Positions 4,099 through 22,496 are shown, counted from the stretch's first letter. The stretch: DNA of 22,496 nucleotides from a virus (IMGVR_UViG_3300000301_000103), one strand, 5' to 3'. The notes: generated by a model from the letters alone, not told the origin. Program-made: numbers and translations.

Positions 4099-5203
4099 AT
4101 GTCTAAGACATTACTTGATTTGCTTAACAAAACTCGTGAAGACATTGCCGCCAAACGTGGCAACAACGTTGATCTGACTCGCTTAAAAGACGGCGTCAAC
4201 TATATCCGCATCTTCCCGAATAAAGACGACCCAAACGGTAAGTTCTTCCAGACTTTCGGTATGCACTACGTTAAGTATCAGAACGAGGAAGGTAAAGAAG
4301 CAACCAACGCTTATATTTGTGAGCAACATACTCACGGTCGCGCTTGTCAGCTATGCGAAATGGTGATGGAAGGTCGCGCTCGTCACAAGGGTAACAAAGC
4401 AATGGAAGAACGCATCGGTCAAATGCGTGCCACTCCTCGCTACCTGGTCAACGGCATTCTTTCTGCTCGTGAGGATTTCGCAGATGCTGAGAAATGCCAG
4501 TTAATCGAGCTGCCGTCTACTGTATTCGATGATATCTGCAAAGCAATCACCGAAGACATCGCTGATGATATCGGCAATCCACTGAGCAAAGAGGAAGGCT
4601 ACGCATTCCTGATTAAACGTACTGGCTCTGGTCGCGATACCAAATATGACGTCTCGCCTAAGCGTAAAGTCTACAAAGGCGATATCGAAGATAAATTCTG
4701 GAACACCCAGCATGATCTGATCGCATACGCAAATCAGGCTGATGAAACTCGTCTTCTGTCGACAGTTCGCACTATGGGTCGTCTGATTGGCATCGCTGCA
4801 CCAACTGCCGCAGCATCTGCACCAGCAATTTCCTCAACCGCGAAAACATCGGCTGCGGCACTACCTGGATTTGGCTCTGTCACTGGTCATACAGAAGGAG
4901 CGACGGCTGTAGCAACCGCGCACACACCGGCTTCTGAACCAACCAGTCTGGTTGATGAAGAAATCCTCCGTGCCGTTGAAACTGAATTTAAACCAGAGGC
5001 AAGTTCCGCTGCCGTTGCCGTATCAGTCAAAGAGTCTGAAGCAGTCGCAGCGACATCTGTAGCAACCGCATCTGCGACGGAAGATNNNNNNNNNNNNNNN
5101 NNNNNNNNNNNNNNNNNNNNNNNNNNNNNNNNNNNNNNNNNNNNNNNNNNNNNNNNNNNNNNNNNNNCTGGATGACCTACTGAGAGAGCTGGACTCTCTG
5201 TAA
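4099..5203 (+). CDS. Single-stranded DNA-binding protein, T4 gp32-like (zinc-binding), with Ala/Ser/Thr-rich linker and acidic tail
   Basis: ATG preceded by AAGGAG; YIRIFPNKDDPNGKFF resembles the gp32 N-terminal region; Cys-x3-His-x5-Cys-x2-Cys (CEQHTHGRACQLC) fits the gp32 zinc site pattern. After N-run 5086-5167 the tail LDDLLRELDSL ends at TAA 5201-5203 in a different frame. Confidence 0.7.
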
Positions 5204-15884: not shown

Positions 15885-16388
15885 TTAATCACAAGTCGTT
15901 TTGCCCGTGCCGTCTGGGTACACGATTGATTCGCACGACTTGCCATTCAAGAAGCTGTAGCTGCGAATAGTACCGTCCGGATCGCGTTCTGTGTAAGACT
16001 CCAGCTTCTTCGGATCAGCGTTCTTACGGCGCACTTCTTTCAGCTCATATTGGGCCTTGTACATCTCCTTGTAGGCTTCCTCTATGCGTTTCATTTTGAT
16101 CTCCTTTGCCTCTTTGCTGCCCAGATAAGCGGCCATTTCAAGATCACAGTTGAACCTGATTTTTGGGAATGAAGGCGCGTATCTACCCATGACTTTGGTT
16201 AAATCATTGTCGTTAGAGACATAATAGGCATGGCTTCCACACAATTTGTCGGCTCTGTCTTGGGCAATTGCTACGCTTGAAGTGGAGTAAATATCAACGT
16301 ACCCGCCAGCTGACTTTTCATCTTGAGGTGGTTTTGGTACGCATCCGATCAGAGCAATGGCCATCGTCCCTATAATTACGCGTTTCAC
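15885..16388 (-). CDS. Lipoprotein (167 aa), function unknown
   Basis: GTG start (plus 16386-16388) 7 nt after AAGGAG; N-terminus MKRVIIGTMAIALIGC carries lipobox LIGC. Confidence 0.65.
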   Translation of the reverse strand: MKRVIIGTMAIALIGCVPKPPQDEKSAGGYVDIYSTSSVAIAQDRADKLCGSHAYYVSNDNDLTKVMGRYAPSFPKIRFNCDLEMAAYLGSKEAKEIKMKRIEEAYKEMYKAQYELKEVRRKNADPKKLESYTERDPDGTIRSYSFLNGKSCESIVYPDGTGKTTCD

Positions 16389-16481
16389 CGTCAGTTCTCC
16401 TTTTTCGTTTGGTTGTCATCATTAAGTGACTGCGATTATAGAGTGGCTTGTAACATCTAGAAGTCTTTGCTGTCCATAAAA

Positions 16482-16501
16482 ATAGGTATTCACTTACCTA
16501 T
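16482..16501 (+). promoter_or_regulatory. Recurrent imperfect palindrome site 5 (ATAGGTA-TTCACT-TACCTAT, perfect 7-bp arms)
   Basis: Exact inverted 7-mers, about 110 nt upstream of sbcD in the divergent intergenic region. Confidence 0.45.
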
Positions 16502-16614
16502 GAATTTGCCATAATCATGTGTCTGTGAACATTCTTAATGGCCGTGTTATCTGGATTGTTCGCCTCTCAAACACACTTAATATCTGTATCAAAATAACCA
16601 CAAAGGAAAAACAC

Positions 16615-17886
16615 ATGACTTTGCCATACGGCGTCATTTCTGACTGCCACTACCACAAATGGGATGCGTTCTCCACGACGAACGCTGAGGGGCTTAACTC
16701 CAGACTTGAAATACAGTTGGAAGCAACGAAAGAAGCAGCCATCGCCATGAAGAAGGCCGGTTGTAAGTACATGTTGGTTGCCGGTGATACATTTCACGTC
16801 CGAGGAACTGTGTCCCCTTCTGTTTTGCATTACGTAACTGAAACGTACAAGTGGATTATCAACGAGCTTGATCTGACAGTAGTAATGCTGGCCGGTAATC
16901 ACGATCTTGAAACCAACGATTCAGTATATAGCGCCAACGCAGCAGCATCGCTGAGTTCTATCGGCGTGGTAATCGTATGTGGCAAACGCCCACACTCAAT
17001 AAAAATTGGTGATGTGACTGTCCACCTGATTAGCTGGCGTAACAATCATGCGGAGCTTATCAGCGATCTGAAAGCATTACGTAAGAGCGTAGAAGGTGAT
17101 AATCATGACGTTGTTATCCATACATCCATTAACAAAGCCATTCCAACAATGCCTGACGTCGGTATCGATGCGCAGGAGTTAAAGGATATCGGCTTTCGTC
17201 TCGTGCTTAGTGGGCATTACCACAACCACAAAGAGGTCATTCCTGGAGTTATCAGTGTCGGTGCGCTGACCCATCAAAATTGGGGAGATGTTGGATCTCT
17301 GGCTGGTTACATGATCGTAAACCCGGACGGCAGTTTCAGTCACTACGAAACCAGTGCGCCTAAATTCATTAACCTGGAAGATTATGTTGCCGATGACCAA
17401 ATTCGCGGCAACTACGTGCGTTTCCGCGCCGTAATTGAGAACGATGAAGAAGGCATTAAGTACCAGAACATCCTCAAAACAATGGGTGCAAAAGGTGTCG
17501 TGTGCAACTTCATCCGTAAGTCATCAATGATGGAAGGGACAGCAAGCACAACGGAAACCAGCAAAATCGATAGCCTGGGAGAGTCGGTATCTGCTTATTG
17601 CAAGATTGTCCACGATACTGACGGCGGATTTGATCTGAGCAAGTTGGATATTTTGTGTCAGGAAATCCTCACNNNNNNNNNNNNNNNNNNNNNNNNNNNN
17701 NNNNNNNNNNNNNNNNNNNNNNNNNNNNNNNNNNNNNNNNNNNNNNNNNNNNNNNNNNNNNNNNNNNNNNNNNNNNNNNNNNNNNNNNNNNNNNNNNNNN
17801 NNNNNNNNNNNNNNNNNNNNNNNNNNNNNNNNNNNNNNNNNNNNNNNNNNNNNNNNNNNNNNNNNNNNNNNAAGGAAATCCCGTAG
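16615..17886 (+). CDS. sbcD: SbcD/Mre11-family nuclease (calcineurin-like phosphoesterase)
   Basis: ATG preceded by AAAGGAAAAACAC; phosphoesterase motifs DCHYH, GDTFH, GNHD and GHYHNH. N-run 17673-17871 hides the C-terminal region; the end is either TAG 17884-17886 or, in another frame, TGA 18006-18008 overlapping the sbcC start. Confidence 0.8.
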   Translation: MTLPYGVISDCHYHKWDAFSTTNAEGLNSRLEIQLEATKEAAIAMKKAGCKYMLVAGDTFHVRGTVSPSVLHYVTETYKWIINELDLTVVMLAGNHDLETNDSVYSANAAASLSSIGVVIVCGKRPHSIKIGDVTVHLISWRNNHAELISDLKALRKSVEGDNHDVVIHTSINKAIPTMPDVGIDAQELKDIGFRLVLSGHYHNHKEVIPGVISVGALTHQNWGDVGSLAGYMIVNPDGSFSHYETSAPKFINLEDYVADDQIRGNYVRFRAVIENDEEGIKYQNILKTMGAKGVVCNFIRKSSMMEGTASTTETSKIDSLGESVSAYCKIVHDTDGGFDLSKLDILCQEILXXXXXXXXXXXXXXXXXXXXXXXXXXXXXXXXXXXXXXXXXXXXXXXXXXXXXXXXXXXXXXXXXXXKEIP

Positions 17887-18004
17887 CGTTTTATCTTGGA
17901 AGGTTAACCAGAAAAGGCGTATTGAGGCGCAGATCCTTCCCGGCGCATACGGAGTTCAGATTGAAAGAAGGTCAAAAGCTAACACACGGTATCAAAGGTG
18001 TTAT

Positions 18005-19921
18005 ATGAAGTTTTTAAAGCTCCAGGTTGAGAATTTTATGGCTATCGCCAGCGCGGAGGTCGAGTTAGATCAGCGTGGTTTAGTGCTCATTCAGGGTGTT
18101 AATAGTGATGATAGTTCCGCATCAAGTAATGGCTCTGGAAAGTCAACGCTAATGAATAGCCTGATGTGGTGTCTTTATGGCGAAACAGCTCATGGTGTGA
18201 AGGGTGACGATGTGTTGTCTACCGACCATGAAAAGAACTGTCGTGTTGCAGTAACCATCGAGGATGAAGGCAAGAGATATGCGATCATTCGTCACCGTAA
18301 ACACAAAGAGTTCAAAAATCGGCTTATCGTTCGTGGTGAAGACGGCGATATGACGAAAGGCAAAGATGCGCTGACGCAAGAGTTCGTCGAGCGTCTGATC
18401 GGTGCATCTAAAGAGGTTTTCATGGCTTCCATCTATGCGAGCCAAGAAGCTATGCCAGATTTACCTGGAATGTCCGACAAAAACCTCAAAACCATCGTAG
18501 AAGAAGCCGCTGGCGTTGACAGACTGACACGCGCCTACGCTATTGCTCGTGAGCGAGCTAATGCAGCTGCCGCACGTATGGATGTGGTTAAAACCAAATT
18601 GGAGTCGACAATCTCGACCATTGAGGCAACACAGTCAGAAATTGAGTCAGCGAAAGCCTCCTCTGAATCATGGGAGCAAGAGCGTTCTAAACGTTATGAC
18701 GATGCCCTGGCTGGGCTGGCCAGTGCCGAAGTTGAGTTAACGGAAGTTGAACTTGAGATCCGCACTCTTCCCGAACAGATCCGTGATACCGAGAAGGCAA
18801 TCGAAAGTGAGCGCAAAAAGTTAGCCTCAAAAGAAGAACATGACGCCAAGTTGCTCAAAGTTCGTGGTGCGATAACTGATATTCGGGCAAGCATCAAAGC
18901 TACAGAAAATAGTCAGGCTGATGCAATGAACCGCGCGCGTAATTTTAAGACCAAAGCAGAAGAGGTTGGTACTAAAGTGGGATCACCATGCCCTACTTGT
19001 GGCAAAGCCTACTGCGAAGAAGATCTATCAACGGTGAAGGAGAATTTCATTGAACAAGCACGTCAGGAAATTGGTCAGGCGAAGACACTTGCAGAGGCAA
19101 TGGCTAAACACAAAACGAATCTTGAGAAAGCGTTAAGCATTGAGTCTGCCCTTGTTAAAACGACACCTGATGTAACGGCTATCATTGCCCGGATTGAAGA
19201 GCTTACGAAACAACTCTCATCTTTGCGTCATCGTGAGAAGGAGGTTGTTGCTATTGAGTCTCTTGTGACTCGTGCTCGTACTGAGGTCGATCGTATATCA
19301 AAAGAGATTAATCCGTTTATTGCTCTTATCGCCAGACACGAAGATAACCTGGTATCCAGTAAGTCTACCTTCAAGTCCTTAAAAGATGAGTTGAAGGCTA
19401 TTCAGGAACAAACGTTGCTATTGGAAAAAGCTCGTCAGGTCTACTCTCCTGCCGGGGTGCGTTCTCATATTTTGACGTCTGTTACGCCTTTCCTGAATAC
19501 ACGCACTGCCGAGTATCTCAATACGTTGTCTGACGGGAATATTACTGCTGAGTGGTCGACGATGGATGTCACTAAAAAAGGTGAGTATCGCGACAAATTC
19601 AACATTAGTGTGCAGAAGAAAGGTTCAAGTAAGTCGTTCCAGACCCTCTCTGGTGGTGAGAAGCGGAAGGTTCGCATTGCGTGTTCTTTGGCATTGCAGG
19701 ATCTGGTTAGTAACCGGGCGAGTAAAAACATCGATTTGTTTATCGGCGACGAAATTGACGATGCACTCGATACAGCCGGTCTTGAACGCCTCATGGGTAT
19801 TCTGGAGTCCAAAGCTCGCGAGCGAGGTACTGTGCTGATTATCTCCCATAAAGAGATGAAGTCATGGTTCCGGGAAACTATTACGCTGGAAGTTAAAGAG
19901 GGGCGCAGCTATGTCGTTTAA
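18005..19921 (+). CDS. sbcC: SbcC/Rad50-family ATPase (638 aa)
   Basis: Walker A GSGKST, long coiled-coil, zinc-hook CPTCGKAYC, signature LSGGEKRKV, Walker B/D-loop LFIGDEIDDALD, H-loop ISHK. Confidence 0.85.
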   Translation: MKFLKLQVENFMAIASAEVELDQRGLVLIQGVNSDDSSASSNGSGKSTLMNSLMWCLYGETAHGVKGDDVLSTDHEKNCRVAVTIEDEGKRYAIIRHRKHKEFKNRLIVRGEDGDMTKGKDALTQEFVERLIGASKEVFMASIYASQEAMPDLPGMSDKNLKTIVEEAAGVDRLTRAYAIARERANAAAARMDVVKTKLESTISTIEATQSEIESAKASSESWEQERSKRYDDALAGLASAEVELTEVELEIRTLPEQIRDTEKAIESERKKLASKEEHDAKLLKVRGAITDIRASIKATENSQADAMNRARNFKTKAEEVGTKVGSPCPTCGKAYCEEDLSTVKENFIEQARQEIGQAKTLAEAMAKHKTNLEKALSIESALVKTTPDVTAIIARIEELTKQLSSLRHREKEVVAIESLVTRARTEVDRISKEINPFIALIARHEDNLVSSKSTFKSLKDELKAIQEQTLLLEKARQVYSPAGVRSHILTSVTPFLNTRTAEYLNTLSDGNITAEWSTMDVTKKGEYRDKFNISVQKKGSSKSFQTLSGGEKRKVRIACSLALQDLVSNRASKNIDLFIGDEIDDALDTAGLERLMGILESKARERGTVLIISHKEMKSWFRETITLEVKEGRSYVV

Positions 19922-20734
19922 ATTAAGCCGCTCGCAGTTTTTGCAGGTATTTGCAGTGATGCAGTCGATAAAACTGATCAATGGGCATACTTCCAATGGN
20001 NNNNNNNNNNNNNNNNNNNNNNNNNNNNNNNNNNNNNNNNNNNNNNNNNNNNNNNNNNNNNNNNNNNNNNNNNNNNNNNNNNNNNNNCACGTATTCTGTG
20101 GGGCAGCAACAATATTGACGGAGTACAATTCGCCGCGTTGCTTGGTCTAATATCCGAGACGCCATTGATGCAAAGTTTGAAATCACTACCACCTGGATGT
20201 ATTGCGCCGATCCTGATTAATCCTTTTGTTGAGGGGGGATATCTTCCCAACGTCGGGCCTGGGTTTATTGCATCCCATGAAACTGAAGATCTTAACATTA
20301 ATAGCGAAGGGTTCTTTGGGGGTATGGGTGCGCATCACTGTATGGCTTTCACGAACCTTATTCGACTTGCCAATAAGCGGGTGGATAGTTTGGCATCGCC
20401 AGGTGATGCTTTTACTGGTTTCCTTATCCAAAGGAGGGATAAAAAGTACAGTGCGGACAAACTACAGTTTGTTGGTAAGTATGGAGAAATGGTAGAAATC
20501 GAACTTCAGCTCCCGCATGTTTTAGCAAACGATAGTGCAGACAGTCGGAGGCTGTTGGGCATCATGCGTCATTTCATAGCAAGTGGCGTTAAACATGCCG
20601 TAGATAAACGTGTCACGCAGGAAAATGAGTATTCAGACTTTGCAAACTCTCCCCAACCAACGTTGCAAACGGCAATAGTAACCAATTCGTTGGAGGCGAG
20701 ATTATTGGAAAACCCTATATGGGGAACATGGTAA
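19911..20734 (+). CDS. Hypothetical protein overlapping the sbcC stop (about 270 aa; N-run 19990-20087 inside, frame differs across it)
   Basis: ATG 19911 preceded by AAGAGGGG; after the gap the frame reaching TAA 20732-20734 is open from the gap edge. Whether this is one gene is unproven. Confidence 0.45.
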
Positions 20735-20743
20735 GGAGACTAT

Positions 20744-21470
20744 ATGAGTAAAAAAATCAGCGTAGTTGGTGTTGATCCCTCAATGAGCAACTTTGGGCTT
20801 GCTGTGGGCACTTTAGACCTTGAGACGGACGAACTTGAGATTCACGGCCTTACTCTTGTTGAGACTAAAGCGGGGAGTAACAAAAAGACCGTTCGTGTGA
20901 ACAGTGACGATCTGCGCCGAGCCAGTGAANNNNNNNNNNNNNNNNNNNNNNNNNNNNNNNNNNNNNNNNNNNNNNNNNNNNNNNNNNNNNNNNNNNNNNN
21001 NNNNNNNNNNNNNNNNNNNNNNNNNNNNNNNNNNNNNNNNNNNNNNNNNNNNNTTGTGAGCTACCGGTTGGGAGCCAAAACTCTCGTTCGCAGACGTCTT
21101 ACGGTATTTGTATCGGTGTACTTGCGTGTGTGGATAAGCCATTGATCCAGGTTACTCCAAACGAAATCAAGCATTTTGTCGGCAATAAACTTACTACATC
21201 GAAAGAAGAGATTATCCAGTGGGCTACGAAAAAACACCCTAAAGCACNNNNNNNNNNNNNNNNNNNNNNNNNNNNNNNNNNNNNNNNNNNNNNNNNNNNN
21301 NNNNNNNNNNNNNNNNNNNNNNNNNNNNNNNNNNNNNNNNNNNNNNNNNNNNACAGGATGTTCTCGTGAACAAAAACGAACATTTGGCTGATGCGGTGGC
21401 TGCCATCCATACCGGTATGCAAACAGATCAGTTCCGCCAGGTGCGCGATGTTCTTAAGTCTCTCATTTGA
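20744..21470 (+). CDS. RuvC-like Holliday junction resolvase
   Basis: ATG 5 nt after AAGGAG; N-terminus KISVVGVDPSMSNFGLAV resembles the RuvC start; EIKHFVGNK and C-terminal ADAVAAIH fit RuvC motifs. N-runs 20930-21053 and 21248-21352 interrupt it with frame changes. Confidence 0.6.
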
Positions 21471-21477
21471 TTTCATT

Positions 21478-21500
21478 GATAGGTAAGTGCTTATCTATTA
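21478..21500 (+). promoter_or_regulatory. Recurrent imperfect palindrome site 6 (GATAGGTAAG-TG-CTTATCTATTA)
   Basis: Same motif family, between the ruvC-like stop and the nrdA start. Confidence 0.4.
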
Positions 21501-21504
21501 ACAT

Positions 21505-21537
21505 GGGCCACTATATTTAGTGGCCCTCTTTATTTGG
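21505..21537 (+). terminator. Hairpin GGGCCACTA-TATT-TAGTGGCCC followed by TCTTTATTTGG
   Basis: 9-bp perfect stem with T-rich tail, 7 nt before the nrdA ATG; the arms contain the iteron-like core CCACTATA. Confidence 0.5.
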
Positions 21538-21543
21538 TGATAC

Positions 21544-22496
21544 ATGATAAGCATCGTAAAACGTAACGGCCAAACAGAGCCGTTATCCGAAGAAAAATAC
21601 AACCGCGTCGTAATGTATGGCGTAGAAGGCATTCGTGGTGTAAGCGCATCCGCTGTAGCAATGGGAGCTGCGGCCAGCATTTTTGATGGGATGACCACCA
21701 GCCAGTTGCANNNNNNNNNNNNNNNNNNNNNNNNNNNNNNNNNNNNNNNNNNNNNNNNNNNNNNNNNNNNNNNNNNNNNNNNNNNNNNNNNNNNNNNNNN
21801 NNNNNNNNNNNGCTGATTTGATCTCACCAGAAGCACCAAATTACTCACAGGTGGCTGCCCGCCTGAACATTTTTAAAATCCGCAAAGATGCCTTCGGTCG
21901 TTACGACTATCCGAACTTCTACCAACACATTGTCAAGAACGTTAACAAGGGCGTTTATGACAAGGATTTGCTGACACATTATTCGTTTGAAGAGATCGAA
22001 GAACTCGGCAATTACATTAAGCCGAAACGTGACGATCTTTTTGGCTATGCAGCTACGGTGCAGTTGCAAAGCAAATACCTCGTTCAAAACCGTGTTACTG
22101 GTGAGATTCATGAGGGGCCGCAACATATCTATATGCTGGTAGGCATGTGTCTGTTCCAGAATTGGGAAGACGACTGCGCTGGCAAAACACGTATGGAGAT
22201 GGTCAAAGGTTTCTATGACGTTACAAGTACGTTCAAACTGTCTCTGCCCACACCAATCATGGCCGGCGTCCGTACTCCAACCCGTCAGTTCTCCAGTTGT
22301 GTGCTGATTGAGTCTGGCGATAGTCTGAAAGGGATTAGTGCAGCTTCAGCCGCAATTATCGACTACGTTTCACGTCGTGCTGGAATTGGTATTGGTTTTG
22401 GCCGTATCCGTGCGCTGGGCAGCGAGATCCGCAATGGTGAAGCCACCCATACCGGAGTTATTCCATTCCTGAAGCATTTCCAGACGGCTGTTAAAT
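21544..22496 (+). CDS. nrdA: Ribonucleoside-diphosphate reductase alpha subunit (class Ia NrdA), N-terminal part; continues past window end
   Basis: ATP-cone-like N-terminus MISIVKRNGQTEPLSEEKYNRVV; downstream LQSKYLVQNRVTGEIHEGPQ and STFKLSLPTPIMAGVRTPTRQFSSCVLIESGDSL closely follow E. coli NrdA as I recall it. N-run 21711-21811 is inside, with a frame change. Confidence 0.9.

What the first reader, a model, noticed from the sequence alone, without database searches (positions are those of the whole stretch)
16615..21470. sbcD-sbcC followed by an overlapping unknown gene and a RuvC-like resolvase
The Mre11/Rad50-type pair is canonical. The next ORF starts 11 nt before the sbcC stop, which implies translational coupling, encodes about 270 aa with no motif I recognise, and is followed 9 nt later by a RuvC-like gene. 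The unknown protein may be an uncharacterised partner of the nuclease complex or of the resolvase.
Basis: inference. Interest (0 to 1): 0.4.

Follow-up and report, generated by a model that had tools for sequence, protein, structure and literature searches.

The report
Orphan tail-bearing partner of phage resolvase
The unknown gene between the phage's Mre11/Rad50-type nuclease and its RuvC-like resolvase is one real, fast-evolving 247-aa orphan protein whose only deeply conserved feature is an aromatic C-terminal tip, which also ends unrelated proteins at the same position in many other phages, so it is probably a docking adaptor rather than an enzyme.

Summary
The window is an SSU5-type phage-plasmid, 99.3-99.7% identical to Escherichia phages Cyrano and CMS-2020a. 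The gene order sbcD-sbcC-unknown-ruvC-like is real, as are the 11-nt and 9-nt junctions. The N-run 20000-20087 stands for only 8 nt, so the unknown gene ("X") is one ORF of 247 aa, not about 270.

Its invariant feature is the C-terminus P-x-W-[G/A]-[T/S]-W after a disordered linker. The same kind of tip (aromatic-G-x-F/W-COOH) ends a second, unrelated Cyrano protein beside the primase. It also ends unrelated orphan proteins just upstream of the same RuvC-like family in about 15 other phage lineages. N4-like phages have N4SSB (...SLFGKK) at that position.

Best reading: a non-enzymatic adaptor with SSB-like architecture whose tip docks a partner, most likely the resolvase. The receptor is not identified.

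The parts
16615..17700 (+). sbcD/Mre11-like nuclease gene (361 aa in Cyrano). Its last ~28 nt and stop codon are hidden in the N-run 17673-17871, so the end coordinate is approximate.
   Evidence: Pfam Metallophos E=8.4e-10 and phrog_100 SbcD-like E=3e-93. Start codon seen. N-run mapping.
17800..18008 (+). Small conserved ORF of 63 aa (SSU5_074 homologue; not annotated in Cyrano). Its start is hidden in the N-run, and its stop overlaps the sbcC ATG (ATGA). It is present only in the SSU5/Cyrano lineage.
   Evidence: 75% identity Cyrano vs SSU5. No Pfam hit.
18005..19921 (+). sbcC/Rad50-like ATPase gene (638 aa), with Walker A (GSGKST), a CxxC zinc hook (CPTC), the signature motif LSGGE and Walker B (DEIDD).
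   Evidence: Pfam AAA_23 and SMC_N, and phrog_77 E=3e-164. Partial NCBIfam Rad50/SbcC hits. Motifs read from the translation.
19895..19903 (+). Shine-Dalgarno-like AAAGAGGGG for gene X, lying inside the 3' end of sbcC.
   Evidence: Sequence. The junction is conserved in four divergent lineages.
19911..20734 (+). Gene X: one orphan gene of 247 aa. The 88-nt N-run 20000-20087 stands for 8 nt. It belongs to phrog_2117 (CYRAN_67, SSU5_076). The predicted structure is an alpha/beta core (aa 1-203), a disordered linker (aa 204-232) and a C-terminal tip.
20714..20731 (+). Codons for the C-terminal tip P-I-W-G-T-W-COOH of X. W244 and W247 are invariant even in members 24% identical overall.
   Evidence: Alignments. 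Synonymous codon variation. Motif specificity.
20744..21470 (+). RuvC-like (RNase H-fold) resolvase gene, 189 aa. The N-runs 20930-21053 and 21248-21352 inflate its apparent length. Candidate catalytic residues are D11, E80, H161 and D164.
   Evidence: phrog_159 E=3e-57. Invariant D/E/H/D in alignments down to 32% identity to the reference sequence (L090).
21505..21536 (+). Intrinsic-terminator-like hairpin (GGGCCACTA-TATT-TAGTGGCCC followed by TCTTTATTT) that closes the sbcD-to-ruvC operon ahead of nrdA (ATG at 21544).
   Evidence: 9-bp stem with 6 GC pairs, on the Cyrano copy. The window sequence is shown.

Best explanation
**What is shown**
- Gene X is a single, expressed-looking, purifying-selected gene in a five-gene operon: sbcD, a 63-aa ORF, sbcC, X, ruvC-like. 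The operon is closed by a terminator.
- X has no detectable relative outside SSU5-like phage-plasmids.
- X has no conserved catalytic-type residues.
- Its predicted architecture is a folded alpha/beta core, a roughly 30-residue disordered linker, and an invariant C-terminal tip P-x-W-[G/A]-[T/S]-W-COOH.
- Tips of the same type (aromatic-G-x-[F/W]-COOH) end otherwise unrelated proteins encoded directly upstream of the same RuvC-like family in many phage lineages.
- The same tip also ends one other Cyrano protein (CYRAN_34), in the primase-ligase module.

**What is inferred**
- X is a non-enzymatic adaptor built like a single-strand-binding protein: a core, a flexible linker and a docking tip.
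- Its body binds DNA or the SbcCD-like complex with which it is co-translated.
- Its C-terminal tip inserts into a pocket on a partner protein.
- The most likely partner is the RuvC-like resolvase encoded next to it. X would then bring or license junction cleavage at recombination or replication intermediates made by the nuclease.
- The fast-evolving body and the frozen tip are what one expects of such an adaptor.
For: **One gene, one operon**
- X is one gene.
- Operon structure and coupling.

**Selection**
- dN/dS is 0.14-0.31 for X, against 0.04-0.06 for sbcC and 0.03-0.05 for ruvC-like.
- Cyrano vs SSU5 identity is 48% for X, against 82-89% for its neighbours.

**Orphan status**
- No Pfam, NCBIfam, PADLOC or PDB hit.
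- Only 25 representatives among 1.84 billion cluster representatives.

**Structure**
- AF2 model: pLDDT 78, pTM 0.76. Block-mean pLDDT is 79-95 over residues 1-200; residues 204-232 fall below 50.
- Among the 14 invariant residues across the family, the only ionisable one is E240, in the C-terminal tail segment.

**Tip**
- W244 and W247 are invariant down to 23-26% overall identity to the reference (P0001) in A2.
- Codons vary synonymously, so selection acts on the protein.

**Same slot, unrelated bodies, same tip**
- The tips seen are FGSF, GYGSW, NWGAF, LWGMF, SFGSW, DFGAFA and others.
- hhalign finds no homology between most of these families.

**Specificity of the tip**
- 69 of 1242 distinct ORF ends match the tip pattern, and 67 of those are slot proteins or CYRAN_34 homologues.
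- In the whole Cyrano genome, only X and CYRAN_34 match, out of 709 ORFs.

**Link to the resolvase**
- By my corrected count, 22 of 26 RuvC-like lineages (clustered at 70% identity) have a tail-bearing ORF upstream: 15 of this tip type and 7 of the SLF/LFG N4SSB type.
- In Rhizobium phage RHph_N1_15 the gene abuts ruvC-like, not sbcC.
- N4-like phages have SSB-ruvC-like without sbcCD.
- N4SSB function depends on its C-terminal residues (PMC4496689).
Against: - No interaction was tested. Structure prediction of complexes was not available.
- The link with the RuvC-like gene comes from loci that were found by searching with the RuvC-like protein. The negative controls (sbcCD present, no ruvC-like, no tail protein) number only two.
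- CYRAN_34 carries the same tip far from the resolvase gene. This fits a shared hub at least as well as it fits the resolvase.
- The literature-documented target of the N4SSB C-terminus is RNA polymerase beta', not a resolvase.
- Cyrano already encodes a gp32-like SSB.
- Four RuvC-like lineages have no tail-bearing neighbour.
- Lineage counts rest on mechanical ORF calls, and I corrected three of them by hand.
Confidence: 0.45

Rival explanations
1. The tip is a sliding-clamp-binding motif. X and CYRAN_34 would tether recombination and replication factors to the host beta clamp. The phage encodes Pol III alpha and epsilon but no annotated clamp.
For: [quoted passage not shown]
- The ImuB motif is QLPLWG (PMC10421592), which resembles X's P-[I/L/V]-W-G.
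- The N4SSB-type tips...[K/Q]SLF(G), resemble QL[S/D]LF.
- Two unrelated proteins in DNA-metabolism modules share the tip, as expected for a hub.
- The Cyrano annotation lists no clamp.
Against: - X lacks the leading Gln.
- X has two residues, not zero or one, between the two hydrophobic positions.
- The review states that Phe-to-Trp at the last motif position weakens binding to E. coli beta.
- The canonical patterns Q-phi-x-[L/M]-[F/L] and Q-phi-x-[L/M]-x-[F/L] are not matched.
- This does not explain why the tail-bearing gene is so consistently glued to the RuvC-like gene.
Confidence: 0.2
2. X is a third subunit or regulator of the SbcCD-like nuclease. This would be analogous to Nbs1/Xrs2 for Mre11-Rad50.
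For: - The 11-nt overlap with sbcC is conserved in every SSU5-like locus, and also in the unrelated 'Y' family and in L207.
- 4-nt overlaps with sbcC occur in L226 and L248.
- Co-translation favours assembly into a complex.
Against: - Tail-bearing proteins occur next to ruvC-like genes in N4-like phages that have no sbcCD.
- In Rhizobium phage RHph_N1_15 four ORFs separate the gene from sbcC.
- Two sbcCD phages lacking ruvC-like have no such protein.
- X has its own SD sequence.
Confidence: 0.1
3. The tip contacts host RNA polymerase, as reported for N4SSB. This would couple late transcription to replication or recombination.
For: - N4SSB occupies the same position upstream of the same RuvC-like family.
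Against: - The X tip (WGTW) differs from the N4SSB tip (SLFGKK).
- There is no homology between the bodies.
- SSU5-like phages are temperate siphoviruses with their own regulators.
- Nothing links X to promoters.
Confidence: 0.08
4. X is a host-directed inhibitor or anti-defence protein, for example against RecBCD, host SbcCD or a defence nuclease. It would be evolving fast in an arms race and sit in this operon only for timing of expression.
For: - X evolves 3-7 times faster than its neighbours.
- It is acidic (pI mostly 4.4-6.7).
- It is an orphan with no fold match.
- The slot is filled by unrelated proteins in different lineages. This is typical of counter-defence 'hot spots'.
Against: - dN/dS stays well below 1.
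- The identical tip across hosts from Alpha-, Beta- and Gammaproteobacteria, and on a protein of the replication module, argues for a conserved partner rather than a variable host target.
- No PADLOC-related or known anti-defence family match.
Confidence: 0.07
5. The aromatic C-terminus is a degradation or quality-control tag (protease recognition) that limits the level of DNA-processing proteins.
For: - The motif sits strictly at the free C-terminus, after a disordered linker.
- It is shared by unrelated proteins.
Against: - It does not resemble the ssrA-type tag (ending LAA) or other C-terminal degrons that I recall from memory.
- It does not explain the tight genomic link to one resolvase family.
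Confidence: 0.05

Closest known systems
C-terminal tips of single-strand-binding proteins (E. coli SSB ...DDDIPF; T7 gp2.5 ...DGDF; sequences from memory)
   Same: Both have a folded core, a flexible low-complexity linker and a short conserved tip ending in an aromatic residue at the free C-terminus. Several slot proteins have acidic residues just before the tip (...YEDNELFGSW...FDDYDNFGMF...DDDDLFGED). T7 also uses similar tails on two different proteins (from memory), as Cyrano does with X and CYRAN_34.
   Different: No OB fold was detected for X. The X tip is not acidic and has two aromatic residues spaced by G-x. ssDNA binding is untested. The phage already has a gp32-like SSB.
Bacteriophage N4 single-strand-binding protein N4SSB (phrog_743)
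   Same: It has the same genomic position, immediately upstream of the same RuvC-like family. It has a similar size (247-268 aa) and is acidic. It has a functional C-terminal tail after a linker.
   Different: There is no sequence similarity to X. The tip is ...[K/Q]SLF(GKK), not W-G-T-W. N4-like phages have Sak4 and a PD-(D/E)XK exonuclease instead of sbcCD.
Beta-clamp-binding motifs (QL[S/D]LF; Pol IV QLVLGL-COOH; ImuB QLPLWG)
   Same: These are short hydrophobic docking peptides, often C-terminal, and they are shared by many unrelated DNA-metabolism proteins. The P-L-W-G of ImuB resembles the P-[I/L/V]-W-G of X.
   Different: The consensus is not matched: there is no Gln, the spacing is different, and the terminal residue is Trp. 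Binding is not tested.
Nbs1/Xrs2, the third subunit of eukaryotic Mre11-Rad50
   Same: It is a poorly conserved, fast-evolving accessory protein of a conserved nuclease-ATPase pair, and it uses short motifs to dock (PMC12343972 abstract; motif detail from memory).
   Different: There is no homology. Bacteria and phages are not known to have a third subunit. The comparative evidence here ties X more to the resolvase than to SbcCD.
phrog_2117 (PHROG family of unknown function)
   Same: X matches the profile end to end (E=2e-127), so it is a plain member.
   Different: The family carries no functional annotation. The tip and its wider distribution are not part of its description in the library.

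Membership tests
phrog_2117 (unknown function) | Full-length match to the family profile. | tested here: met
   E=2e-127 over residues 1-247 against profile positions 1-248 of 248. The SSU5 homologue scores E=2e-150.
SbcD/Mre11 nucleases (upstream gene) | Calcineurin-like metallophosphoesterase domain with N-terminal metal-binding motifs. | tested here: met
   Pfam Metallophos E=8.4e-10, above the cut-off. phrog_100 E=3e-93. The NCBIfam SbcD equivalog models score far below their cut-offs, so this is a divergent phage-type member.
SbcC/Rad50 ATPases (upstream gene) | Split ABC-type ATPase head (Walker A, signature motif, Walker B), a coiled coil and a CxxC zinc hook. | tested here: met
   Pfam AAA_23 and SMC_N score above their cut-offs. 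GSGKST, CPTC, LSGGE and DEIDD are read from the translation. CSEC occupies the same place in L074.
RuvC-type Holliday-junction resolvases (downstream gene) | RNase H-like fold with a catalytic acidic tetrad (D, E, D/H, D). | tested here: inconclusive
   D11, E80, H161 and D164 are invariant across relatives down to 32% identity to the reference sequence (L090). phrog_159 'RuvC-like' E=3e-57. But there is no Pfam hit, the NCBIfam RuvC score is 16.7 bits against a cut-off of 163, and there is no PDB sequence hit. The fold was not modelled.
RuvC-type Holliday-junction resolvases (downstream gene) | Cleaves four-way junctions. | not testable with these tools
   This needs biochemistry.
OB-fold single-strand-binding proteins (considered for X) | OB-fold DNA-binding core. 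| tested here: not met
OB-fold single-strand-binding proteins (considered for X) | Core, then a disordered linker, then a conserved C-terminal tip. | tested here: met
   In the AF2 model, block-mean pLDDT is 79-95 over residues 1-200 and residues 204-232 fall below 50. The tip is invariant.
N4SSB family (phrog_743) | Sequence or profile similarity. | tested here: not met
   In the all-against-all hhalign run, no X-versus-N4SSB pair appears among the 25 best, so the probability is below 0.5%. PHROG assigns X only to phrog_2117.
Beta-clamp-binding proteins | Motif Q-phi-x-[L/M]-[F/L] or Q-phi-x-[L/M]-x-[F/L] (PMC11139829). | tested here: not met
   The X tip, E-N-P-I-W-G-T-W, has no Gln. It has G where L/M is required and ends in W. 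The resemblance to the ImuB motif QLPLWG is a lead only.
Rad52/Redbeta/Erf-type annealing proteins | Fold or profile similarity. | tested here: not met

The most novel reading that the evidence does not exclude
The C-terminal tip aromatic-G-x-[F/W]-COOH, together with its SLF/LFG relatives on N4SSB, may be a previously unrecognised recruitment code of phage recombination modules. Unrelated, fast-evolving DNA-binding or adaptor proteins would use it to dock one widespread family of RuvC-like resolvases, or a hub shared with the replication module. X would be the SSU5-lineage example, with a fold not yet seen in solved structures.
Probability: 0.35. Interest if true: 0.7.

Novelty: new variant of a known kind. 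Interest (0 to 1): 0.55.

Why it matters
- SSU5-type phage-plasmids are common in clinical Enterobacteriaceae (E. coli, Salmonella, Klebsiella, Yersinia pestis pMT-like contigs), and their recombination and replication genes are almost unstudied.
- If the tip is a docking peptide, it gives a handle on how a phage couples end-processing (Mre11/Rad50 type) to junction resolution. No accessory factor is known for this step in bacteria.
- It would also give function to a set of orphan genes in many phage lineages that homology searches cannot connect to one another.
- The prediction is cheap to test with tip mutants and pull-downs.
- If the receptor is the host clamp or RNA polymerase, the motif would extend the known repertoire of those hubs.

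Tried and rejected
**Family and sequence searches**
- Pfam, NCBIfam, PADLOC and a PDB profile search for X gave nothing. The only near-hit, DUF7007 at E=0.04 for the SSU5 homologue, is below the cut-off.
- A second, profile-based search of 5.8 billion proteins found no new relatives.
- No slot family other than X and N4SSB has a PHROG or Pfam family.

**Structure searches**
- The 2H-phosphoesterase idea was rejected on its motifs.
- The Rad52/Erf idea was rejected for lack of hits.

**Homology between slot proteins**
- hhalign of X against the 'Y' protein of L074 and against CYRAN_34 gave probabilities of 0.2-0.35%.
- In the all-against-all comparison, only some short families link up.

**G/A covariation between the X and CYRAN_34 tips**
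- Across 44 genomes there were 38 concordant and 6 discordant pairs.
- I do not count this as evidence for a co-evolving receptor. It mostly follows two clades, and mosaics mix the two forms.

**Nucleotide-level constraint**
- The idea that the tip is conserved because of the RBS of ruvC-like was rejected. Codons vary synonymously, the downstream sequences differ, and CYRAN_34 has the tip without a resolvase gene downstream.

**Moellerella plasmid**
- It has only one clear tip-bearing ORF. The protein at the CYRAN_34 position ends ...AGMF, which is only a partial match.


Full report
**What the window is**

Megablast of 16400-22496 finds Escherichia phage CMS-2020a (99.6-99.7%), phage Cyrano (99.3%) and PhiR41_1 (99.5%). 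Salmonella phage SSU5 matches at 79%. The window therefore comes from an SSU5-type phage-plasmid. The Cyrano record annotates this stretch, in order, as: SbcD-like, SbcC-like, hypothetical protein (CYRAN_67, 247 aa), RuvC resolvase, NrdA. SSU5 has the same order plus a 64-aa-class ORF between the two nuclease genes.

**Checking the observation**

These coordinates hold:
- The sbcD ATG is at 16615.
- sbcC runs 18005-19921.
- An ATG at 19911 lies 11 nt before the sbcC stop.
- The unknown ORF stops at 20734.
- The RuvC-like ATG is at 20744 and its stop is at 21470.

The N-runs mislead.
- The run is 20000-20087, 88 nt.
- Read literally, the 19911 frame ends at 20150, and the long ORF (20138-20734) is in a different frame.
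- I anchored the flanks of each N-run on Cyrano. The 88 N stand for 8 nt (TGCGGCTC), the 199 N at 17673-17871 stand for 124 nt, and the 105 N at 21248-21352 stand for 25 nt.
- With 8 nt restored, the two frames join into one gene of 744 nt, 247 aa.
- The hidden 124 nt hold the sbcD stop and the start of a 63-aa ORF whose stop overlaps the sbcC ATG.
- A strong terminator-like hairpin follows the RuvC-like gene (window 21505-21536), and a promoter-like site precedes nrdA.

The unit is thus a five-gene operon.

**The flanking genes**

- SbcD-like: Pfam Metallophos and phrog_100.
- SbcC-like: AAA_23/SMC_N, phrog_77, Walker A, a CPTC zinc hook, LSGGE and DEIDD.
- RuvC-like: phrog_159 (E=3e-57), but no Pfam hit and only a far-sub-threshold NCBIfam RuvC hit.
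- In alignments reaching 32% identity to the reference sequence (L090), D11, E80, H161 and D164 of the RuvC-like protein are invariant. This is the pattern expected of an RNase H-fold resolvase.
- I did not model its fold.

**Gene X itself**

- X is a plain member of phrog_2117, a family of unknown function.
- It has no Pfam, NCBIfam, PADLOC or PDB sequence match.
- A search of 5.8 billion proteins gave 48 hits. All are 'hypothetical', and those with a source name come from Enterobacteriaceae, many on contigs of about 100-111 kb.
- An exhaustive HMM scan of 1.84 billion cluster representatives gave only 25 hits.
- A second profile search added nothing.
- The most distant members (P0059, P0065; 23-26% identical to P0001) sit in the same context, with the same 11-nt overlap.
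- X is a real gene under purifying selection: dN/dS is 0.14-0.31 over 50 distinct alleles.
- X evolves 3-7 times faster than sbcC (0.04-0.06) and ruvC-like (0.03-0.05).
- Cyrano vs SSU5 identity is 48% for X, against 82-89% for every neighbour.

**Structure of X**

- With 26 sequences, AF2 gives pLDDT 78 and pTM 0.76.
- The model has a confident core over residues 1-203 with the order alpha-alpha-beta-beta-beta-alpha-beta-beta-beta-alpha.
- It has a disordered segment at 204-232 and a short terminal helix.
- The two H-x-T/S motifs that define 2H enzymes are not conserved.
- Across the whole family, the invariant residues are M1, S2, L5, Q12, Q46, L50, P58, M60, P73, Y84, F195, E240, W244 and W247. 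This is not a catalytic constellation.
- The first codons are constrained by the overlap with sbcC.

**The tip**

- Every family member ends P-x-W-[G/A]-[T/S]-W-COOH.
- Gly, Ala, Thr and Ser codons vary synonymously, so selection is on the protein.
- I scanned all 709 ORFs (at least 40 aa) of the Cyrano genome for an end of the form [WFY][GA][STV][WFY].
- Only X and CYRAN_34 match. CYRAN_34 is a 260-aa hypothetical protein (phrog_4248) lying between the primase and the ligase, and it ends ...ISWGSW.
- The two bodies are unrelated (hhalign probability 0.35%).
- The SSU5 and Klebsiella homologues of CYRAN_34 end ...GWATW, like X in those lineages.
- Over 44 genomes the G/A state agrees in 38. 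Mosaics mix the two forms, so I treat this as clade signal, not co-evolution.

**The same slot in other phages**

I searched species-representative genomes, IMG/VR and metagenomes with RuvC-like alignments. The gene just upstream of the RuvC-like gene differs completely in sequence and length (141-312 aa), yet its end is similar:

| Source | End of the upstream protein |
|---|---|
| 'Y' family of Xenorhabdus, Morganella and Moellerella; same 11-nt overlap with sbcC | ...F-x-[F/M]-G-S-F |
| Photobacterium | ...ELFGSW |
| Chitinibacter, two tandem ORFs | ...GYGSW (both) |
| Other lineages | ...NPNWGAF, ...NPNWGLF, ...NPNFGRF, ...HLWGMF, ...ESFGSW, ...KDFGSW, ...DNFGMF, ...DFGAFA, ...SNYGGF, ...EDFGAW, ...DYGGW, ...PLFGVWG |

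- hhalign links only some of the short families to each other. X shares at most its N-terminal helix with 'Y' and L207.
- None of these proteins has a PHROG or Pfam family.
- The pattern [FWY][GA].[FW].?$ matches 69 of 1242 distinct ORF ends in all the DNA I held. Of these, 67 are slot proteins or CYRAN_34 homologues.
- In N4-like phages the upstream gene is N4SSB (phrog_743), which ends ...[K/Q]SLF(GKK).
- I clustered the RuvC-like proteins at 70% identity and corrected three mechanical ORF mis-picks.
- The result is 26 lineages: 15 with the first tip type, 7 with the SLF/LFG type and 4 with neither.
- These lineages were found by searching with the resolvase, so the association is conditional on that seeding.

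**Which neighbour matters**

- In Rhizobium phage RHph_N1_15 four ORFs lie between sbcC and the tail-bearing gene, and that gene ends 2 nt before the RuvC-like ATG.
- N4-like phages have the pair without sbcCD.
- Stenotrophomonas phage BUCTxx99 and Enterococcus phage iF6 have sbcDC but no RuvC-like gene, and no tail-bearing ORF downstream.
- The conserved unit is therefore [tail-bearing protein]-[RuvC-like]. In SSU5-like elements it is also translationally coupled to sbcC.

**Mechanism**

- The architecture (core, flexible linker, conserved aromatic C-terminal tip) is that of single-strand-binding proteins, whose tips recruit partner enzymes. This is established knowledge for E. coli SSB and T7 gp2.5; I cite it from memory.
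- I infer that X is a non-enzymatic adaptor whose tip docks a partner.
- The resolvase next door is the most economical candidate.
- CYRAN_34 carries the same tip in the replication module, so a shared hub is a serious alternative.
- The host beta clamp is the best-known hub of that kind. ImuB's motif QLPLWG resembles P-[I/L/V]-W-G (PMC10421592).
- However, the canonical clamp motif is not matched, and Trp at the last position is reported to weaken binding to the E. coli clamp (PMC11139829).
- All slot proteins are acidic or near neutral except L188 (7.7) and L238 (8.6) (pI 4.4-8.6). This does not discriminate between the models.

**Verdict**

- The finding is real but was mis-measured.
- The gene family is already catalogued as a hypothetical protein.
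- As far as my searches went, what appears new is the shared C-terminal tip that connects unrelated orphan proteins across many phage lineages.
- No interaction has been shown, and the receptor is unknown.

Noticed in passing
window 17673-18008 (Cyrano L001:7167-7358): A conserved 63-aa ORF (SSU5_074 homologue, 75% identical between Cyrano and SSU5) lies between sbcD and sbcC. Its stop overlaps the sbcC ATG. It is hidden by an N-run in the window and is not annotated in Cyrano. It is absent from the Xenorhabdus/Moellerella lineage, where sbcD and sbcC abut. It has no Pfam hit.
   Followed up: partly
window N-runs at 17673-17871, 20000-20087 and 21248-21352 (and probably all 19 runs): The N-runs do not preserve length. 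The three whose flanks could be matched are 75-80 nt longer than the sequence they replace in 99%-identical genomes. As a result, frames and ORF sizes read across them are wrong.
   Followed up: yes
outside the window: Cyrano OV696614.1 34791-35573 (L096): CYRAN_34 (260 aa, phrog_4248, hypothetical) lies between the primase and the ligase and ends ...ISWGSW, the same tip as X. It also evolves fast (41.5% identity to its SSU5 homologue). Its body is unrelated to X.
   Followed up: partly
L251/L252 (about 4216-4992) and L254/L256 (4795-4992): In one SSU5-like sub-lineage (RuvC-like 71% identical), an extra ORF is inserted between X and the RuvC-like gene. It is up to 258 aa, ends ...HFVEMEVTE and has no Pfam hit. 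X and the resolvase gene are therefore not always contiguous.
   Followed up: partly
L091, L260, L262, L263 (N4-like phages): N4SSB homologues carry the peptide SLFG/NLFG at both ends: an N-terminus of MSNLFGNL or MSSLFGKL, and a C-terminus of ...KSLFGKK. In L091, the 164-aa ORF after the RuvC-like gene ends ...PSLFANLKR.
   Followed up: no
L012/L147, L022/L137, L072/L111 and others: These SSU5-like genomes are mosaic. Their recombination module is Cyrano-like (RuvC-like 100% identical), but their replication module is SSU5-like (CYRAN_34 homologue 43% identical), or the reverse. This points to module exchange between sub-lineages.
   Followed up: no
window 15885-16388, minus strand: A 167-aa ORF with a lipoprotein-type N-terminus (MKRVIIGTMAIALIGC...) is transcribed away from the nuclease operon. 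It is the homologue of SSU5_072 and has no Pfam hit.
   Followed up: partly
Cyrano genome (L096-L098): The element carries a T4-like recombination kit as annotated: UvsY, a gp32-like SSB ending in the acidic ...DDLLRELDSL, a 5'-3' exonuclease, a 779-aa RecA/UvsX-like protein and UvsW. It also carries Pol III alpha and epsilon, but no annotated sliding clamp or clamp loader.
   Followed up: no
L083/L084 (Yersinia pestis NCTC5923 contig NZ_UAVH01000011.1): The same sbcD-to-ruvC module appears twice on one 108-kb contig. Downstream, the nrdA region is replaced by repeated 169-aa ORFs. This may be an assembly or terminal-redundancy artefact, or a rearranged pMT1-like/SSU5-like element.
   Followed up: no
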